64,000 nucleotides of DNA from a virus. The stretch lies in the IMG/VR virus record IMGVR_UViG_3300018080_000107. One strand, 5' to 3'. A program made the translations under genes and the position numbers. A model generated the notes under the pieces. It saw nothing but the letters and a program-made list of their open reading frames with translations. It had not been told where the DNA came from and searched no databases. This document shows, in pieces, positions 1-6,581 of this stretch; position 1 is the stretch's first letter, and the number at the start of each line of letters is the position of its first letter.

Positions 1-261
1 AATGCCTTCCTTCTCAATTGCAGTCGCATGATGATCAATCCAATGAACGTCTCCAGTGATTGAAAGTAAAGTTTCCCAATCTCCTGGGTTCTGCAAACTG
101 AAATCAACAATAAAAACAGTCTCCCCCGCCTCAATCTGCTCAAAAGGAACCTTCTTATTATAGTTCATCTCGACAAACTTAATATTCTCGTTTGGGTACT
201 GTAGCCTAATAATAGCTCCAGCGGCCCTTCCGTCAATATCATTATGATGTAGGACTATCAT
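1..261 (-). CDS. DHH-family phosphoesterase, N-terminal part (runs off window)
   Basis: Hand-translated MIVLHHNDIDGRAAG...VFIVDFS...HWIDHH, giving HxDxDG, VD and DHH motifs; absent from ORF track. Confidence 0.85.
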   Translation of the reverse strand, partial: MIVLHHNDIDGRAAGAIIRLQYPNENIKFVEMNYNKKVPFEQIEAGETVFIVDFSLQNPGDWETLLSITGDVHWIDHHATAIEKEGI

Positions 262-847
262 TCTCTTCTCCGTCAATATCAAGAACCACACAACGCTTAT
301 CATCATTAAACTGTACTGGTACAATATCCACATGCTTAGCCTCTGTCATTCGACCGGCCAGATATCCAAGAGTGTCGCTTGTCCGCATAGTGACAATATT
401 ATACACCTCAGCAATCTTCTGTGCCACTGGTGAATCCTCCACCTTGCCTGCCGAAACAATGGCCTGAACCATTTCGGTAACTGGTGGGAAATTGTGACCA
501 GCCTTGAATGCCAACTTGCGCATTAATGGCTCATTGTAACTATCCACCATCACGACAAAAGTTCCATTCTCCTGATCATGACGAGCAACACGTCCGGTAC
601 ACTCAACCATAAACTTAATCATGATATCAGCAGCAGCAATTTCTGAAATCTTCTCAACGATATGTGTTGGTGTCTCATTTTCCCAACCTGCGACAAGAAA
701 CCACTCAAAAGTCTTCTCGCCCTTAAGAATATCATGCTTTGCACACTTGACAACCGTAGCCTTGTAAATACTATCTGCACGCCAAAAAGCTACCTGGATG
801 GTGTCTTCAATCATCTCTGGATTAATCTTATCCATAATCAACTCCAA
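242..847 (-). CDS. hypothetical protein
   Basis: 201-aa ORF overlapping both neighbours in operon. Confidence 0.7.
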   Translation of the reverse strand: MELIMDKINPEMIEDTIQVAFWRADSIYKATVVKCAKHDILKGEKTFEWFLVAGWENETPTHIVEKISEIAAADIMIKFMVECTGRVARHDQENGTFVVMVDSYNEPLMRKLAFKAGHNFPPVTEMVQAIVSAGKVEDSPVAQKIAEVYNIVTMRTSDTLGYLAGRMTEAKHVDIVPVQFNDDKRCVVLDIDGEENDSPTS

Positions 848-1188
848 TCTTCTTCAATTTGTTCAGCCTCAGTTTTAGGCTTATCTTCCATAACTTTACC
901 AACTCGCTGCGTGGGTGACAGTGGTGTAATCAATTGCGGGTATCTTTGCTCACGTACCGTAATATATTTAAATGCAGCATCGTAAACATTGTCACTTACA
1001 CTCGATTCACCATTGTAATACTGCCACGACCACAGAACACAGCATGAACGCAACCCTGCCACAGCTTCTATAACATCCTTTGGAACCTCAGACACATTAA
1101 ATATGTCTTCAGCCGCCTCCCTACCAGCATCACGAACATACTGAGGGATACTTTCGTCCTCAAGCCATAATGGTAAACTTACTCTCAT
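838..1188 (-). CDS. stand-alone NAD-dependent DNA ligase domain Ia-like protein
   Basis: YYNGESSVSDNVYD...YPQLITPLSPTQRVG matches LigA domain Ia; no KxDG adenylation domain follows. Confidence 0.75.
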   Translation of the reverse strand: MRVSLPLWLEDESIPQYVRDAGREAAEDIFNVSEVPKDVIEAVAGLRSCCVLWSWQYYNGESSVSDNVYDAAFKYITVREQRYPQLITPLSPTQRVGKVMEDKPKTEAEQIEEDWS

Positions 1189-1727
1189 TTTGGCGGCAAC
1201 TTTCCACCAGGAACTGGCTCACCAAAACTTTCAATCTTATAACGCCAACCACCACGTCCATTCCCATTACCGGGCCGACCCTTACCATTTCCTTGACCTT
1301 GACCACGACCTTTGCCGTTGCCTTGTCCACCTTTACCATTACCCTTGCCTTTGCCTCCACGCTTATAAGTAACAGGTATACCCTTGCCCATCTTAGGACG
1401 ACCTTGTTCAAGTCCCTCCTCTGCAGGCTTTACGTATGGTACTGTCACGATGCGTGTGGTATCCTTATCAAAAAGCCAAAGCGTAATCTTTTCTTTAGAT
1501 TGGATTCTAAAATATATTACTGTAATTTTCTCTGGCAATTTATTCCACTCTGTCTCTACCGGATAGCCGAGAACCGACACATAAGAAAAATATGCGCCAG
1601 ATCCACATAGTGCGATTAGAGGAACAAATAATGCCAAAGGCCATGACTTATTCTTTAGTGCTACCACAAACGCAGCTACGGCAGCAACACATAGCCCAAC
1701 TAAACTCAATACAAAAAGTTCAAACAT
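1185..1727 (-). CDS. membrane protein with G/K/N-rich tail, third gene of ExbB/ExbD-like module
   Basis: Two N-terminal TM segments, low-complexity GKGNG repeats, translationally coupled to 1727..2323. Confidence 0.7.
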   Translation of the reverse strand: MFELFVLSLVGLCVAAVAAFVVALKNKSWPLALFVPLIALCGSGAYFSYVSVLGYPVETEWNKLPEKITVIYFRIQSKEKITLWLFDKDTTRIVTVPYVKPAEEGLEQGRPKMGKGIPVTYKRGGKGKGNGKGGQGNGKGRGQGQGNGKGRPGNGNGRGGWRYKIESFGEPVPGGKLPPK

Positions 1728-2323
1728 TATTCCTTCCCCACAAAATATTCCGGCCTATTAGTTCTAACCTGATTAACAGTATAGCCCTTACCCCTCTTTT
1801 CAACGGTAAACTTAACAAAGTGTGTCTCACTACGAGGAACAGAAATGATTTGCTTACCAGCATAAAGCATATTCTTCTTCTTTACATCCTGAATAAGAAT
1901 CTCAACCTCAGTATCTGTTCCAGGCTCAACCTGCTGCGGATTGAAATAATGAACATTAACAATATATTCACCCTCCAAAATAGACCGAATTGTAATAATC
2001 TCTTCATTGTCCTTGATTACATATTCTGACCCATCAGGATTATGATACTTCCGCCAGTTTACAACGTCAACGTCCAAGTGCGCAGGGGGCTCATCCCGCT
2101 TATTATATCCAACATGACGACCATCCGGCAACTTTAACCACAGGTCCATATCATTGTTGGCCTTCCAGCGCATTGTGATAAGAATGTTGTTTGCATTCTT
2201 TGCCTGCTCATCGTCCTTCTTCTTTGTCACCATCCAAAACGCAAGAACAAATAGTACGACAAAAGATAAAAGCAAGTTGAACAGCAGGTCAATAATTACA
2301 TTTCTTCCTGCTTTTCCAAACAT
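1727..2323 (-). CDS. ExbD/MotB-like TM protein with YfaP/DUF2135-like domain
   Basis: N-terminal TM with Asp (IIDLLFNLLLSFVVLF); WxxxxDMDLW, LDVD, EEIITI and GEYIVNVHYF motifs. Confidence 0.65.
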   Translation of the reverse strand: MFGKAGRNVIIDLLFNLLLSFVVLFVLAFWMVTKKKDDEQAKNANNILITMRWKANNDMDLWLKLPDGRHVGYNKRDEPPAHLDVDVVNWRKYHNPDGSEYVIKDNEEIITIRSILEGEYIVNVHYFNPQQVEPGTDTEVEILIQDVKKKNMLYAGKQIISVPRSETHFVKFTVEKRGKGYTVNQVRTNRPEYFVGKE

Positions 2324-2791
2324 TTACTCACTCCACTTCTCTCGCACTACAGCGAGTTGAACAATAAGCATGATTGCACACACAAGCCCAACAAGCGTTG
2401 TAACAAGCGCAGTGCCAACTCCAGACGAAATAGAAACCAATGCCTCCTTAAGAGACTCATGATTTGAAACATCGACTTCTGTAAACGCACCAGTTATTGC
2501 CATAATCAATCCAATAATAGTGCCCAAAAGCCCAAGTGTTGTGCAAAGCTCTGTAGCTTTGTCTGTTACACCAAAATCTGCGTCCCTGCCGCGCTTAAAC
2601 ACCTTGTAATTAAGATGAATAGAAGTAGCAACAAAAATGCCCAAGATCACCCATGACAAATGAGTCTGATCACTTGCCGCAATAAACTTACCAAGTCCCG
2701 CAATAAGTGCTGACGCCAAAGCCACCATCATTACAGAAAACGCAACCCACCACCTAACAAGTGGTGAGGACATTCCTTTGCTATTATCCAT
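2324..2791 (-). CDS. MotA/TolQ/ExbB proton channel family protein
   Basis: LGLLGTIIGLIMA and ISSGVGTALVTTLVGLVCAI match the ExbB/TolQ TM2 and TM3 signatures. Confidence 0.85.
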   Translation of the reverse strand: MDNSKGMSSPLVRWWVAFSVMMVALASALIAGLGKFIAASDQTHLSWVILGIFVATSIHLNYKVFKRGRDADFGVTDKATELCTTLGLLGTIIGLIMAITGAFTEVDVSNHESLKEALVSISSGVGTALVTTLVGLVCAIMLIVQLAVVREKWSE

Positions 2792-3164
2792 CAGATTCTC
2801 CTATATCTTCTTCTTTCCATTTGCCGTTCTCATCACGACATTCTATTTTTAGATTTTTTGCCTGCATTGATTCGTCTACAATCTCATCTATTGTTTTTCC
2901 AGACAGAATCTCTTTTACAGCCCTTGCATGCCACACCTTAAATTTAGCACTGCCAACCAAGTTGCGTAACGCTTCTTTAATGTTAGATTTGCGCTCACGA
3001 TGTGATTGACCAGTCACTATAGCACCAGAGGCAGGGTGATGAAGGCGTACACAGTTTTGATGTCGATTCCTGTGTTGGCCCCCAGCACCGCTGCCACTGA
3101 AATACTCAATTCGCAGGTCTTTTTTTGTGATGCTAAAAAGCAGTCTGCGATTAGATTTTGCCAT
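2784..3164 (-). CDS. peptide chain release factor-like GGQ peptidyl-tRNA hydrolase domain protein
   Basis: GSGAGGQHRN...VRLHHPASG...QSHRER...N; catalytic domain only (126 aa). Confidence 0.85.
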   Translation of the reverse strand: MAKSNRRLLFSITKKDLRIEYFSGSGAGGQHRNRHQNCVRLHHPASGAIVTGQSHRERKSNIKEALRNLVGSAKFKVWHARAVKEILSGKTIDEIVDESMQAKNLKIECRDENGKWKEEDIGESDG

Positions 3165-3523
3165 TAGTCCTCTACTGACAGCTTCTCGCCTGCAAGAAGA
3201 AAACGACTACGCTTATTACCCTCTCGGTCCTCCCAAGAATTTTCCTTGAGTTCGCCTTCGACTGTAACGACAACGCTATCATTCTCCTGAATGCGCTCGC
3301 CATCCTCAACATCGGGCAGGAAGTTAGCAAGCTGGCGGTTAATAGCCTTTGCTCGATCACCCCAAAACTCTACACCAATGCCGAAGAAACTTCCACGACT
3401 TGTCTTTGTGCGAACATAAACATTCAACACATCCTTACCTGTCGCGGTACTGCGAAGCTGCTTGTTGCTAACTACGCCTGTCAACATAATACGATTACCA
3501 AACTGTTCTGTCTTATCAGCCAT
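3164..3523 (-). CDS. ssb: single-stranded DNA-binding protein (OB fold, no acidic tail)
   Basis: NRIMLTG...VEFWG...VTVEGELKENSWEDREGNKRS. Confidence 0.85.
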   Translation of the reverse strand: MADKTEQFGNRIMLTGVVSNKQLRSTATGKDVLNVYVRTKTSRGSFFGIGVEFWGDRAKAINRQLANFLPDVEDGERIQENDSVVVTVEGELKENSWEDREGNKRSRFLLAGEKLSVED

Positions 3524-3600
3524 TTGTTACCTCCAAAAAATACCTTGGCTGTCAAAATATTGAGCAAAAATACATTTTCCCGCTCTTACACCAAATAACC

Positions 3601-4845
3601 TTACTCACTTTTTACTGATGAGTCAAGCCCCATAAGCAAATTGCTACCCTGTGGCAGTATCGAGTTAGGTAGATTACCACTCCACTTCTTCGCCATTTCA
3701 AGACGCGCCTCGGCTTCCATCCTGTCAATTTCGAGCCGAATCTTTGCAGTCTGGGCCTCAAGAGCCTTATTGAACTCCTCGGCACACAGACGGTTATTCA
3801 CTTCGATAGAAAGCAGTCGTTCGTTTTCCTGCTTTTGAGCCATCTTAAGGTTTTCCTTACGCTCAATTTCCATCTCAGCTTCATAGTTCTTATCAATGGC
3901 ATCCTGAATACGCTTATTCTCATAACTAAGACCACCTGAATGTCCAAGCATTCTAATAGTCACGCCAAACTTCTTCCAATACTTACTTGATTCAGCAAAT
4001 GCGATGTCAAAAATAGCAGCCTTATCTGTCTTACAAGCAGCCAAATCACGAGCACCGAACTCACGAGCAAGAATCTTGGTAATAGATGCCCTAATGTCCT
4101 TGTCAATTACATCAGCAAGTGGTCTACCCTGCGGAAAATTGTAAAGATACGTAGCAGTGTTGGGCTCTTCGATTGCAGCAGTAATAGTACATCCAATACC
4201 AAACCCAATCGAATCCTTAGACTCTACATAAATTAGATCATCATTCTTAGAAGTTCCTGTTTCATGCTCTGCGGTCCACTCACGCGATACCGGCGAACGA
4301 TCTACAGTAATAACACGCACTGTCTCTACAATCTCTACATCATACCACATACGCCCAGTTGACTTATAACGACGTGGAATATTGATACGCTTTGCAGCGA
4401 CCTTACGCTCCTCAAGAAATGCAACCGAATCGAACTTTCCCTGGCTGGTCTTATTTGCACCCTCAAGAGGTACTACGAAACCAGTCTCACTTGGCCCGAT
4501 ATCCTTATACATTTCACCCATATAGGGCTTACATCCAACAACGCCAAAACATAGCGCCGCAAACAAAAACAACGACACAGACTTTCTCACTACATCCTCC
4601 TTAAATAACTTGCACAGTGGACCAATCCACAACAGAAATAAAAATACACAAAGTACAACTCCAACAACCTTTAAGATGGCAGTATCTACAATCGCAGTCC
4701 TGGCAACATTATAAGCGACATCATCATCTTTTAGTTGCTCGACCGCCAACTGCCCCTCAATGGTGCCACGAGACACATCATATGCCCCATAAAGAAAAAC
4801 ACCAACAATAACAACAAGTAAACTAAGTACAACTCTAAGCTTCAT
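3601..4845 (-). CDS. SPFH/band-7 domain membrane protein
   Basis: N-terminal TMs, SKDSIGFGIGCTITA motif, C-terminal coiled coil ending KWSGNLP. Confidence 0.75.
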   Translation of the reverse strand: MKLRVVLSLLVVIVGVFLYGAYDVSRGTIEGQLAVEQLKDDDVAYNVARTAIVDTAILKVVGVVLCVFLFLLWIGPLCKLFKEDVVRKSVSLFLFAALCFGVVGCKPYMGEMYKDIGPSETGFVVPLEGANKTSQGKFDSVAFLEERKVAAKRINIPRRYKSTGRMWYDVEIVETVRVITVDRSPVSREWTAEHETGTSKNDDLIYVESKDSIGFGIGCTITAAIEEPNTATYLYNFPQGRPLADVIDKDIRASITKILAREFGARDLAACKTDKAAIFDIAFAESSKYWKKFGVTIRMLGHSGGLSYENKRIQDAIDKNYEAEMEIERKENLKMAQKQENERLLSIEVNNRLCAEEFNKALEAQTAKIRLEIDRMEAEARLEMAKKWSGNLPNSILPQGSNLLMGLDSSVKSE

Positions 4846-4875
4846 AAAATAAACCTCCTAAATACCAAATAAAAA

Positions 4876-5301
4876 TTACTTGCGCAAACCCTTTGATGGG
4901 TCTATTGAAACAGCATTACTACCGTTGGGCAACTTAGTAACATTGATTCTAATATCCCCGCCTTCATTTAGTTCGTCAGAAATATCAATACCCGTGTCCA
5001 GCGCCCATTTTCGTGCCTTATGCATAAAGGCGTCATACATTCCCTTAAGCGCCGCATTCTGAGCCTTAAGATCACAAACTTCTGATTCCAGTAAATCTGC
5101 TCGCTCTGTCTGGTCAACAAACTTCTGCTGCCACTCCTGGCATTTGGTACGCAATGCATTCGTTTCTTTATTTCTATGCCCCAACCTTGTTGTCAATTCT
5201 GAAATGCGCATACGTAATTTAAACTTCGTCTGGATAAAAATAATACCAAGTATCGCAATAGTAATACATGAAAAAATACCCACAACTGAAACCGCTGTCA
5301 T
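4876..5301 (-). CDS. TM-anchored coiled-coil protein
   Basis: Start reassigned to MTAVS after GGAG RBS; downstream of class II promoter. Confidence 0.65.
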   Translation of the reverse strand: MTAVSVVGIFSCITIAILGIIFIQTKFKLRMRISELTTRLGHRNKETNALRTKCQEWQQKFVDQTERADLLESEVCDLKAQNAALKGMYDAFMHKARKWALDTGIDISDELNEGGDIRINVTKLPNGSNAVSIDPSKGLRK

Positions 5302-5413
5302 TTTAACTCCTCTGGGCCGCGCCCTCACTATTATGTATGTAGTTTGACCGAAGGTCTGTCGAGTCCTTTTTGTTGCGTTGGGGAGGGATACAATTTCACT
5401 CCCCTCAATATAA

Positions 5414-5439
5414 TAGACGATTAAATCACCCGAAATTAC
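5414..5439 (-). promoter_or_regulatory. class II promoter GTAAT-N15-CGTCTA
   Basis: One of 7 intergenic copies. Confidence 0.7.
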
Positions 5440-5450
5440 ATGAAAATTTA

Positions 5451-5708
5451 TCAATTTTCCTTCGGGTGGTTGCAGCGATAATGAACTATCGCAACATTCG
5501 TTAGGCGCACTACCTTATTTTTGCCTACTCCATGCACCCGTACAGACTTTGGCGTATGCTCTTGGAAAGATTCGCCACAAAAATGACACTTCTTAGTTAA
5601 TAGATACAATAGAATAAATGAAGACTGATTTATTTCAACAGAATAGCCTTTTTCTTTAAGCATTCGGCATAATTTCGCATATATTCGTCTCGCTGTACCC
5701 CTTGCCAC
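5451..5708 (-). CDS. degenerate HNH-like zinc-binding protein, paralog of 7004..7333
   Basis: KGYxVxI, CxxC and IVHxxCN shared with 7004..7333. Confidence 0.6.
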   Translation of the reverse strand: MARGTARRIYAKLCRMLKEKGYSVEINQSSFILLYLLTKKCHFCGESFQEHTPKSVRVHGVGKNKVVRLTNVAIVHYRCNHPKEN

Positions 5709-5722
5709 GATGCCCCCATATG

Positions 5723-5962
5723 CTATTGTCTGTTATAAGCCTCACAATCTGAACATTCTTCATCCTCACCAATGTCATGATGCCACTTTCCACACATCCT
5801 ACAAAACTCACCCTCTGGCTCTTCATAATAAACATTAAGCGCATCCAATAAGCTGCCAATATGACAGCCAACAAAACTATGCCCTTCGTGAATGCAGTCA
5901 CCATCTACAAAAACCTGAATCCAATCATCTCCTCGTAGAATCTTGACCTCATGATGCTCCAT
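5723..5962 (-). CDS. hypothetical protein
   Basis: Coupled ORF with two CxxC pairs. Confidence 0.6.
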   Translation of the reverse strand: MEHHEVKILRGDDWIQVFVDGDCIHEGHSFVGCHIGSLLDALNVYYEEPEGEFCRMCGKWHHDIGEDEECSDCEAYNRQ

Positions 5963-6581
5963 ACTGGCACTCCCTCCTAAACAAAGCGTATAGTTGATGG
6001 CTCATATCTTTATACTGCGGATATGACAAAAATACTGTAGGCATAGCATTTCTAATGTTTTTCTTCTTATATGGCGCATGTCCTGGCTTATTCCAAGCTC
6101 TCAACCATCGAACCACAATATAATGATACATATAAGCGTTGGCTTTTTGTATATAACTATCTATATCTATTGGAAGATGAAATTTGTGTATAAGTGCAAC
6201 TGTTCTTTTTTCACAATCCAACTCAACCTCAATTGTCCGTCTAATCGCATCATCTATAAAAGAAGGCTCTAACTCTCTCCCATTCAACCACTCATCTATA
6301 AGAACAGAAGAATCCTCTCCGTCCATGTCACAATTTGTCCACGCATAACATTGAGACTTCCACTGAAGCATATGACAAAACTCATGTGCAAGAACTTCAA
6401 TCCACTCTTCTTCTGGGCAGCCTATCGCAACCGCCAATTCCAATGGACTCTCTTCAAAGTAGCCAGCTATCCCAATTCCATCATATAAAATATGCGGCTC
6501 ATCTACAAATTGAACATCAACCCCTTGGAGCCAACATCTCATTTCTACATATCGCTTAAATAACCTGGCAGACCACTTCAT
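5949..6581 (-). CDS. putative zincin metallopeptidase
   Basis: LAHEFCHMLQ (HExxH) plus distal ELDCE. Confidence 0.6.
   Translation of the reverse strand: MKWSARLFKRYVEMRCWLQGVDVQFVDEPHILYDGIGIAGYFEESPLELAVAIGCPEEEWIEVLAHEFCHMLQWKSQCYAWTNCDMDGEDSSVLIDEWLNGRELEPSFIDDAIRRTIEVELDCEKRTVALIHKFHLPIDIDSYIQKANAYMYHYIVVRWLRAWNKPGHAPYKKKNIRNAMPTVFLSYPQYKDMSHQLYALFRRECQYGAS

What the first reader, a model, noticed from the sequence alone, without database searches (positions are those of the whole stretch)
1185..2791. Phage-encoded three-gene ion-motive stator module (ExbB/MotA-like, Asp-TM partner with YfaP-like domain, G/K-rich membrane protein)
Seen: three abutting or coupled genes. The first has both MotA/TolQ/ExbB signature helices with their Thr residues. 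The second has a single TM with an Asp in the position of the essential ExbD/MotB Asp, but a YfaP/DUF2135-like domain instead of an ExbD or OmpA domain. The third has two TMs and a GKGNG-rich tail. Known: MotAB, ExbBD, TolQR and Zorya ZorAB are 5:2 ion-driven rotary motors. Inference: a phage-borne motor or ion channel for superinfection exclusion, membrane-potential control or interference with host Ton, Tol or Zorya systems. An SPFH scaffold protein is encoded in the same operon.
Basis: partly seen in the sequence, partly recalled or inferred. Interest (0 to 1): 0.75.

Follow-up and report, generated by a model that had tools for sequence, protein, structure and literature searches.

The report
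Phage-borne miniature MotA/ExbB-type motor trio
Three tightly packed membrane-protein genes on this probable phage contig encode a stripped-down, undescribed relative of the ion-driven motors behind flagella and the Ton/Tol systems; the same trio recurs in many phages and Proteobacteria, and its job is unknown.

Summary
On the minus strand, A (2324-2791, 155 aa) passes Pfam MotA_ExbB. It keeps both pore helices with their Gly/Thr motifs. B (1727-2323, 198 aa) has one membrane helix whose Asp12 aligns with TolR D23 and ExbD D25. That Asp is present in 221 of 224 relatives; the other 3 are gaps at that column. C (1185-1727, 180 aa) has a two-helix hairpin.

Three things are new here:
- B's periplasmic part folds confidently as a TerD-like beta-sandwich, with only a weak DUF2135 sequence signal and an invariant acidic cluster.
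- C's G/K-rich stretch is a lineage-variable disordered loop inside a small beta domain, not a tail.
- A-B-C is kept in order in essentially every one of 80 viral and 80 bacterial loci that reach far enough, while the flanking genes vary.

The SPFH neighbour is real but is not a conserved partner.

Best reading: a Ton/Tol-like, ion-driven A5B2 motor with periplasmic output and C as a third subunit. Stoichiometry, ion flow and the role in infection are inferred.

I found no paper on it. This scan noted the same trio before on other DNA: 27 earlier notes matched the word search.

The parts
2324..2791 (-). Gene A: minimal MotA/TolQ/ExbB-family protein, 155 aa. Four predicted membrane helices, a cytoplasmic loop of about 17 residues and no cytoplasmic tail.
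   Evidence: Pfam PF01618 at 35.3 bits against a 22.9 cut-off. Partial ZorA, TolQ and ExbB profile hits. A profile hits solved MotA, TolQ, ExbB and PomA. Alignment with E. coli TolQ shows the cytoplasmic insert and tail are missing.
2480..2542 (-). A residues 84-104: first pore-lining helix, motif LGLLGTIIGL (G87, G90, T91, G94).
   Evidence: Invariant columns in A2. Conservation across 191 sequences. Aligned to MotA and TolQ.
2342..2422 (-). A residues 124-150: second pore-lining helix, motif GVGTALVTTLVGL (A128, T131, T132, G135).
1727..2323 (-). Gene B: ExbD/TolR-like single-pass anchor with a periplasmic beta-sandwich, 198 aa.
   Evidence: 59-sequence alignment. AF2 model with pLDDT 93.2. 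The family has 2,777 clusters at E<=1e-3.
2288..2290 (-). Codon GAC for B Asp12, the candidate ion-binding residue in the membrane helix.
   Evidence: Present in 221 of 224 relatives, the other 3 being gaps at that column. Aligned with TolR D23 and ExbD D25. Codon read.
1763..2185 (-). B residues 47-187: TerD-like beta-sandwich head. W53, D58, D60, D86 and E108 are invariant.
   Evidence: Foldseek PDB top hits are TerD proteins (3ibz E 4e-4; 2qz7, 2kxt). VIA-align gives 2qz7_B Z 9.6 over 131 residues and 2kxt Z 9.2 over 128, with the next hit at 6.3. Conservation.
1185..1727 (-). Gene C: two-helix membrane hairpin plus a small beta domain, 180 aa. It is the conserved third member of the trio.
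   Evidence: Homologous across phage and bacterial loci. AF2 model with pLDDT 80.
1569..1724 (-). C residues 2-53: transmembrane hairpin with a short K-rich connecting loop.
   Evidence: Helices 2-23 and 29-53 in the model. Hydrophobicity scan.
1248..1358 (-). C residues 124-160: G/K/N-rich low-complexity loop, predicted disordered and variable between lineages.
   Evidence: pLDDT about 48-50. Composition differs among relatives that are 52-63% identical. No strong DNA tandem repeat.

Best explanation
The three genes encode one inner-membrane machine of the MotAB / ExbBD / TolQR (5:2 stator) kind, reduced to its core.

Inferred by homology: five copies of A form the ion-conducting ring, using the two conserved Gly/Thr helices. 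Two copies of B sit in its centre, with Asp12 taking up and releasing the coupling ion (H+ or Na+). Ion flow down the membrane gradient turns ring and axle against each other.

Shown: A has almost nothing in the cytoplasm (a loop of about 17 residues, no tail). B's head and C's domain are predicted to be periplasmic. Any work is therefore delivered in the membrane plane or the periplasm, as in Ton, Tol and Gld, and not to a cytoplasmic rotor.

Shown: B's head is a TerD-like beta-sandwich with an invariant acidic cluster. Inferred: this cluster binds a metal such as Ca2+ or an envelope ligand.

Inferred: C, anchored by a helical hairpin, takes the place that TolA or TonB holds next to TolQ or ExbB. 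It is the third subunit or the first client.

The cassette moves as a unit between phage genomes, and a clade of Proteobacteria carries it on the chromosome. In this probable phage it most likely acts as an auxiliary envelope module in the infected cell. Which envelope process it drives is not known.
For: A:
- Pfam MotA_ExbB above the cut-off.
- A profile matches every solved stator A-subunit family over the pore helices.
- Pore-helix Gly/Thr motifs are near-invariant in 191 sequences.

B:
- Asp12 is present in 221 of 224 relatives, the other 3 being gaps at that column.
- Asp12 aligns with TolR D23 and ExbD D25 within a shared (I/L)D(L/V)(L/M)(F/L)xLL(L/I)xF context.
- The confident model shows an N-terminal helix plus a beta-sandwich. 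TerD is the top match by two independent aligners.

C is a real family found by a profile in phage, cultured-phage and bacterial loci.

Gene order and coupling:
- A-B is kept in 79 of 80 viral loci. C is kept in 78 of the 78 that reach far enough. Start and stop codons overlap by 1-20 nt in most.
- The same order holds in about 76 of 80 bacterial loci and in cultured Rhizobium phages RHph_I1_18 and RHph_N3_19.
- Flanking genes are not conserved. No neighbour family occurs in more than 13 of 80 viral loci. The trio is therefore the functional unit.

Topology follows the positive-inside rule, read from the sequences.
Against: - No complex was modelled.
- A's similarity to solved stators is weak (E 8e-4 to 0.08) and limited to two helices.
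- Apart from the short membrane motif, B has no detectable sequence relation to ExbD, TolR or MotB.
- C has no TonB or TolA signature: it has two helices instead of one, no conserved His, and no TonB_C hit. Fold searches for its domain gave nothing significant.
- In 65 of the 191 A sequences the first pore Thr is Lys, so the pore chemistry is not uniform across the family.
- There are no expression or phenotype data. I found no paper on the family.
- No phage structural gene was seen in this window. Ten mid-size ORFs had no PHROG match.
Confidence: 0.62

Rival explanations
1. A regulated ion leak rather than a motor. A and B form a gated channel whose purpose is to lower or sense the membrane potential of the infected cell, for example to time lysis, block superinfecting DNA entry or shut down host transport. 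There is no mechanical output. B's head acts as plug or sensor, and C as a regulator.
For: The same conserved pore elements and Asp. A lacks any cytoplasmic or large periplasmic domain to push on. Unplugged MotAB and ExbBD leak protons (established knowledge). The trio lies among non-structural genes in this window.
Against: A mere leak would not need a strictly conserved, well-folded periplasmic head with 5 invariant residues across 224 sequences, nor a conserved third protein. Chromosomal copies are stably kept in many Proteobacteria next to periplasmic enzyme genes, which fits poorly with a depolarising device.
Confidence: 0.15
2. A dedicated Ton-like energiser. The trio powers outer-membrane receptors or another envelope uptake step during infection as an auxiliary metabolic module, with C acting as the TonB analogue that reaches the outer membrane.
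For: Gene order A-B-C mirrors exbB-exbD-tonB and tolQ-tolR-tolA (for tolQRA). Ten bacterial loci have a TonB-dependent receptor gene about 0.5 kb upstream, 9 of them on the opposite strand. Several viral loci carry the inner-membrane peptide transporter SbmA/BacA 20-350 nt downstream.
Against: In the model, C's conserved C-terminal strand folds back onto its own membrane-proximal domain and the variable stretch is a loop. Nothing obviously spans the periplasm. There is no TonB_C or TolA-like domain by Pfam or fold search (inconclusive). Receptor and transporter neighbours are each present in a minority of loci.
Confidence: 0.1
3. Interference with host motors. The tail-less A and the non-anchoring B mix into or mimic host ZorAB, TolQR or ExbBD complexes and poison them. 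This would be counter-defence against Zorya or a block of Tol/Ton-dependent entry by rival phages and colicins.
For: The best PADLOC and NCBIfam hits of A are to the membrane core of ZorA (E 5.6e-8 and 6e-8). A has no tail and B no peptidoglycan-binding domain.
Against: The ZorA hits are no stronger than the generic Pfam hit and cover only the shared helices. The cassette has its own matched B and C partners in every locus. The sampled bacterial chromosomal copies form a single clade. No ZorC or ZorD-like genes are nearby.
Confidence: 0.06

Closest known systems
ExbB-ExbD-TonB and TolQ-TolR-TolA (Ton and Tol-Pal inner-membrane motors)
   Same: Three-gene order: channel, Asp anchor, third anchored protein. 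A shares the two pore helices. B shares the N-terminal helix with the Asp in the same sequence context. Output is on the periplasmic side.
   Different: A has 155 aa and four helices and lacks the cytoplasmic domain of ExbB and TolQ. B's head is TerD-like, not the ExbD/TolR fold. C has a helical hairpin and a small beta domain, with no Pro-rich or long helical spacer and no TonB or TolA C-terminal domain.
MotAB / PomAB flagellar stator
   Same: A is predicted to have a four-helix topology like MotA. The best solved-structure hit of the A profile is MotA (8gqy, E 7.9e-4). B has the Asp equivalent to MotB D32 (recalled from knowledge of the family, not aligned here).
   Different: No cytoplasmic rotor-binding domain on A. 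No plug or OmpA-like peptidoglycan-binding domain on B. No flagellar context.
ZorAB of the Zorya anti-phage system
   Same: A's helices 2-4 align with the N-terminal membrane core of ZorA profiles.
   Different: No long ZorA tail, no ZorB peptidoglycan-binding domain, no ZorC/D/E genes. Carried by phages rather than by defence islands.
TerD (tellurite-resistance, Ca2+-binding beta-sandwich)
   Same: Fold of B residues 44-198: Z 9.6 and 9.2, and Foldseek probability 1.00.
   Different: 9-15% identity and no Pfam TerD hit. TerD proteins are soluble and cytoplasmic, whereas this domain is membrane-anchored and predicted periplasmic. Conservation of the TerD Ca2+ motif was not tested.
DUF2135 / YfaP-type domain (PF09906)
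   Same: Shared DxDL...P.G...Y and GEY.VN.H-type motifs. Weak hits in 8 of 27 homologues. One metagenome annotation uses that name.
   Different: The window's own protein has no hit at E<=0.1. The relation is sub-threshold, and DUF2135 itself has no known function; no paper in the library mentions it.

Membership tests
MotA/TolQ/ExbB proton-channel family (PF01618) | Profile score above Pfam's gathering threshold | tested here: met
   35.3 bits against 22.9, E 1.1e-8. The precomputed annotation gives PF01618 on 50 of the 52 listed homologues.
MotA/TolQ/ExbB proton-channel family (PF01618) | Two C-terminal pore helices with conserved Gly/Thr motifs | tested here: met
   G87, G90, T91, G94 and A128, T131, T132, G135. 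Aligned to MotA and TolQ.
MotA/TolQ/ExbB proton-channel family (PF01618) | Pentameric ring around a dimer of the partner (5:2) | not testable with these tools
Not modelled.
ExbB or TolQ proper; MotA proper | Sizeable cytoplasmic domain between or after the helices | tested here: not met
   The alignment with E. coli TolQ shows the insert and the C-terminal tail are absent. NCBIfam TolQ, ExbB and MotA scores lie far below their cut-offs.
ExbD/TolR (PF02472) | N-terminal single membrane helix with an essential Asp | tested here: met
   D12 aligns with TolR D23 and ExbD D25. Present in 221 of 224 relatives, the other 3 being gaps at that column.
ExbD/TolR (PF02472) | ExbD/TolR-type periplasmic domain | tested here: not met
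   No Pfam hit for the window's protein, and ExbD is not among the 25 most-matched families of 27 homologues at E<=1. The model is a TerD-like sandwich.
MotB / ZorB | C-terminal OmpA-like peptidoglycan-binding domain | tested here: not met
   No OmpA Pfam hit and no PADLOC ZorB hit. A different fold.
Zorya system | ZorA with long cytoplasmic tail, plus ZorC/ZorD or ZorE partners | tested here: not met
   A is 155 aa, and its hits cover only the membrane core of ZorA profiles of 420-1063 positions. B, C and the SPFH protein have no PADLOC hit.
TonB / TolA (for C) | Single N-terminal anchor helix with conserved His (SHLS-type motif) | tested here: not met
   Two helices. The invariant and near-invariant columns of the 50-sequence alignment (G54, G116; P56, I81, Y98) include no His and none lies in the first helix.
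TonB / TolA (for C) | TonB_C or TolA domain III fold at the C-terminus | tested here: inconclusive
   No Pfam hit. The VIA search was dominated by the helical hairpin. Foldseek gave only weak OB-like rows, all E>0.1.
DUF2135 (PF09906) | Profile match to the domain | tested here: inconclusive
   None for the window's protein at E<=0.1. 8 of 27 homologues match weakly, best E 0.0019.
TerD (PF02342) | TerD beta-sandwich fold | tested here: met
   2qz7_B Z 9.6, rmsd 3.7, 131 aligned. 2kxt Z 9.2, 128 aligned. The next hit is Z 6.3. Foldseek E 4e-4 to 8e-3.
TerD (PF02342) | Sequence membership and the TerD Ca2+-binding motif | tested here: inconclusive
   No TerD entry among the Pfam hits listed. 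9-15% identity to TerD structures.

The most novel reading that the evidence does not exclude
The trio is a third kind of membrane-gradient-to-periplasm energy transducer, beside Ton and Tol. Its clients would be periplasmic enzymes rather than outer-membrane receptors. The TerD-like, probably metal-binding head of B, together with C, would use rotation to load, remodel or feed proteins in a compartment that has no ATP.

Leads:
- In one phage clade a DegP-like trypsin+PDZ protease gene overlaps C's stop codon.
- In other viral loci SbmA/BacA follows closely.
- In Burkholderiales and Granulosicoccaceae chromosomes the trio sits beside PQQ-dependent dehydrogenase, cytochrome c and pqqBCE genes.
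Probability: 0.12. Interest if true: 0.85.

Novelty: new variant of a known kind. Interest (0 to 1): 0.66.

Why it matters
All known 5:2 ion-driven motors (Mot, Ton, Tol, Gld, Zorya) are bacterial machines with an assigned role. Here is a much smaller version with a new head domain and a new third subunit. In the sampled tree its deepest diversity lies among viral contigs, and it has no described function. At 155 + 198 + 180 residues it could be a minimal model for how ion flow is converted into movement. It would also show that phages bring their own gradient-driven envelope machinery into the cell. Two cultured Rhizobium phages carry it, so the question is directly testable.

Tried and rejected
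- Complex prediction of two B heads (41-198) with C's periplasmic part (52-180) gave no verdict: ipSAE 0.03 and 0.02 against a mark of 0.32, and controls were not run. This is neither support nor evidence against binding.
- A 5:2 model could not be sent because of the six-chain limit.
- Megablast of window 1-6000 against cultured phages found nothing. tblastn with A found nothing. tblastn with B found only four Rhizobium phages.
- Fold searches for C were uninformative. VIA was dominated by the helical hairpin. Foldseek gave only weak OB-like rows, all E>0.1.
- The B profile against PDB sequences gave only a sub-threshold DxDL motif match to the Ca2+-binding jelly-roll of Tk-subtilisin-like protease, E 0.34.
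- SPFH as a partner was rejected. No homologue of the SPFH, RF-1, SSB-like or two downstream genes lies near the trio in any other locus held at that point.
- An Atlas structural row linking C to a viral Phage_lysozyme-bearing cluster (TM 0.55/0.36) was followed up by looking for PF00959 in five trio-bearing records. Only RHph_N3_19 has one, about 17 kb from the trio. No lysis link is shown.
- The search for related loci with the C alignment failed because no stretch was conserved enough.
- No whole genome is held for the window.
- Ten further mid-size window ORFs had no PHROG match, and tblastn with a phrog_1221 protein did not place the phage taxonomically.
- Literature searches found no description. 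DUF2135 occurs in no paper of the library.
Full report
**What is there.** Coordinates 1185-2791 hold exactly three minus-strand ORFs:
- A: 2324-2791, 155 aa
- B: 1727-2323, 198 aa
- C: 1185-1727, 180 aa

The junctions read from the sequence show tight packing. A's ATG overlaps the end of the upstream RF-1-domain gene. A's TAA is followed at once by B's ATG. B and C share TAATG, and C's TGA overlaps the next ATG.

**Gene A.**
- Pfam MotA_ExbB scores 35.3 bits against a cut-off of 22.9.
- PADLOC and NCBIfam give partial hits to ZorA, TolQ, ExbB and MotA profiles, all far below full-length cut-offs.
- A profile of 30 homologues hits every solved stator A subunit (MotA, TolQ, ExbB, PomA) over the two pore helices, E 8e-4 to 0.08.
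- In 191 distinct A sequences from phage and bacterial loci, G87, G90, G94, A128, T131, T132 and G135 are near-invariant. So is Asp41, at the outer end of helix 2.
- T91 is Thr in 125 sequences and Lys in 65.
- Against E. coli TolQ, A lacks the long cytoplasmic insert and the tail.
- From the charge distribution in the sequence I infer four helices with both ends inside. Only about 17 + 8 residues face the cytoplasm.

**Gene B.**
- Asp12 is invariant in 59 diverse homologues. It is present in 221 of 224 sequences; the other three are gaps at that column.
- It aligns with TolR D23 and ExbD D25 in a shared (I/L)D(L/V)(L/M)(F/L)xLL(L/I)xF context.
- There is no ExbD or OmpA Pfam hit.
- AlphaFold2 on the 59-row alignment gives pLDDT 93.2, with a helix at 4-40 and a beta-sandwich at 47-187.
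- Foldseek against the PDB puts TerD proteins on top (3ibz E 4e-4; 2qz7; 2kxt). The independent VIA search agrees: 2qz7_B Z 9.6 over 131 residues and 2kxt Z 9.2 over 128, with the next hit at 6.3.
- W53, D58, D60 and E108 are invariant, and D86 differs in one of the 224 sequences. I infer a metal or ligand site. This was not tested.
- The family holds 2,777 clusters at E<=1e-3 and 698 at 1e-30 among 1.84 billion representatives. The best 150 are almost all 185-330 aa.

**Gene C.**
- It belongs to a real, fast-evolving family. G54 and G116 are invariant and P56, I81 and Y98 near-invariant in 50 sequences.
- The model (pLDDT 80) shows a hairpin of helices 2-23 and 29-53, then a small beta domain at 67-123. 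It is completed by a confident strand at 163-168 that comes from the conserved C-terminal peptide.
- Residues 124-160, the G/K-rich stretch, are low-confidence. In 52-63% identical relatives they are replaced by G/E-, G/D- or Q/N-rich stretches. It is therefore a variable disordered loop, not a defining tail.
- No known fold was assigned.

**Is the trio a unit?** Yes.
- In 80 IMG/VR loci found with the B alignment, an A homologue lies directly upstream in 79. The exception is cut by the contig end.
- A profile for C finds it directly downstream in 76, after one inserted gene in 2, and cut off by the contig end in 2.
- Most junctions overlap by 1-20 nt.
- The flanks differ. No neighbour family is present in more than 13 of 80 loci. 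The annotated ones are T4-like neck, gp15 and sheath proteins, PhoH, peptide deformylase, dNMP kinase, SbmA/BacA and a DegP-like protease.
- Two large contigs with close relatives again show the trio in unrelated contexts.
- Four cultured Rhizobium phages carry a relative of B. In the two examined, RHph_I1_18 and RHph_N3_19, all three genes are present and annotated only as hypothetical proteins.
- A variable fourth gene sometimes follows C. The DegP-like protease overlaps C's stop in one clade, SbmA/BacA follows within 20-350 nt in another, and an unknown 141-aa gene follows in a third.

**Bacterial copies.**
- The same B profile finds 545 loci in representative bacterial genomes. The best 80 are mostly Burkholderiales, with some Alpha- and Gammaproteobacteria.
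- A-B-C order is kept in about 76 of the 80.
- In a quick, unrooted tree these 26 non-redundant bacterial sequences form one clade (SH-aLRT 96) among several deep viral clades. The window's B sits in a separate, well-supported clade of uncultured sequences, two of them IMG/VR viral contigs (98). The careful tree search did not finish.
- Neighbours in bacteria: a PQQ-dependent dehydrogenase (43 loci), a DUF3108-like gene directly after C (30 loci), and a solute-binding/cytochrome c fusion (29 loci). PqqB-, PqqC- and PqqE-like genes each occur in 12-14 loci. A TonB-dependent receptor gene lies upstream in 10 loci, 9 of them on the opposite strand.

**The SPFH neighbour.** The 414-aa protein at 3601-4845 is SPFH/Band 7-like (Atlas feature score 0.98, structural TM 0.66/0.85). 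No homologue lies near the trio in any other locus held at that point. A terminator-like hairpin sits in the gap after it. I treat it as a chance neighbour.

**Is it a phage?** Probably, but this window holds no hallmark structural gene.
- The window contains PHROG families, but ten further ORFs had no match.
- No whole genome is held for the window.
- The contig is 165,953 bp.
- The trio's relatives lie on viral contigs with T4-like structural genes.
- Earlier first-reader notes list tRNA arrays, a tmRNA and RNA ligases nearby. I did not check these.

**How it most likely works.** By homology, A5B2 forms an ion-conducting rotary core with B Asp12 as the coupling site. That inference rests on the conserved pore elements, not on a model of the complex. 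Because the cytoplasmic mass is almost nil, the output must be periplasmic or in the membrane plane, as in Ton, Tol and Gld. C, whose hairpin could dock on the outside of the ring like TolA or TonB, is the likely third subunit or first client. What the machine acts on during infection is unknown.

**Rivals.** They are a regulated ion leak, a Ton-like energiser of uptake, and interference with host Zorya, Tol or Ton motors. The strictly conserved head and third subunit, together with the chromosomal clade, weigh against the leak and interference readings.

**Novelty.** I found no paper describing the cassette. This scan's own notes hold 27 earlier sightings on other DNA, with the same general reading. 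Those notes are leads, not independent evidence. I re-derived each claim used here.

Noticed in passing
window 2784-3164 (-): A 126-aa RF-1-domain (GGQ, ArfB-like) protein (Pfam RF-1 E 1.4e-14; phrog_3122 E 1.8e-20). Its last codons overlap gene A's start codon, so the trio is translationally coupled to an unrelated ribosome-rescue-type gene.
   Followed up: partly
window 3601-4845 (-): A 414-aa membrane protein of the SPFH/Band 7 kind (Atlas feature score 0.98; phrog_200 'lipoprotein'). It is real, but it is not found near the trio in any other locus held at that point.
   Followed up: yes
window 838-1188 (-): A 116-aa ORF whose ATG overlaps C's stop codon. It resembles only the N-terminal part of NAD-dependent DNA ligase (phrog_3869 E 1.3e-8; Pfam Nlig-Ia E 0.061). 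It may be a stand-alone ligase-adenylation-cofactor domain or a gene remnant.
   Followed up: no
L083-L162 (bacterial loci): In Burkholderiales and Granulosicoccaceae chromosomes the trio sits next to PQQ-dependent dehydrogenase, solute-binding/cytochrome c fusion and pqqB/C/E-like genes. A DUF3108-like gene follows C directly in 30 loci. A Hyphomicrobiaceae locus (L118) carries only a short fragment of the solute-binding/cytochrome c family. This may be a functional link to periplasmic PQQ enzymes or to their metal or cofactor supply.
   Followed up: partly
L065-L074; L007-L015, L053-L060, L077: A variable fourth gene follows C in phage loci. A DegP-like trypsin+PDZ protease overlaps C's stop in one clade, SbmA/BacA follows 20-350 nt downstream in others, and an unknown 141-aa protein follows in a third.
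   Followed up: partly
A homologues of phage and bacterial loci (hmmalign): The first pore-helix Thr (T91, equivalent by my reading to ExbB T148) is Lys in 65 of the 191 A sequences. A basic residue would then sit where it could pair with B's Asp.
   Followed up: no
window 1188-1727 (-), Atlas search: One Atlas structural neighbour of C is a 297-aa, all-viral cluster that always carries Phage_lysozyme (TM 0.55 by query, 0.36 by row). It may be a C-like anchor fused to a muramidase. PF00959 was not found next to the trio in five records searched.
   Followed up: partly
window 1-64000: GC skew is strongly negative up to about 32 kb and positive after about 34 kb, matching a switch of coding strand. 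There are no tRNA genes in this window. Ten mid-size ORFs have no PHROG family, so most of the window is made of orphan genes.
   Followed up: no
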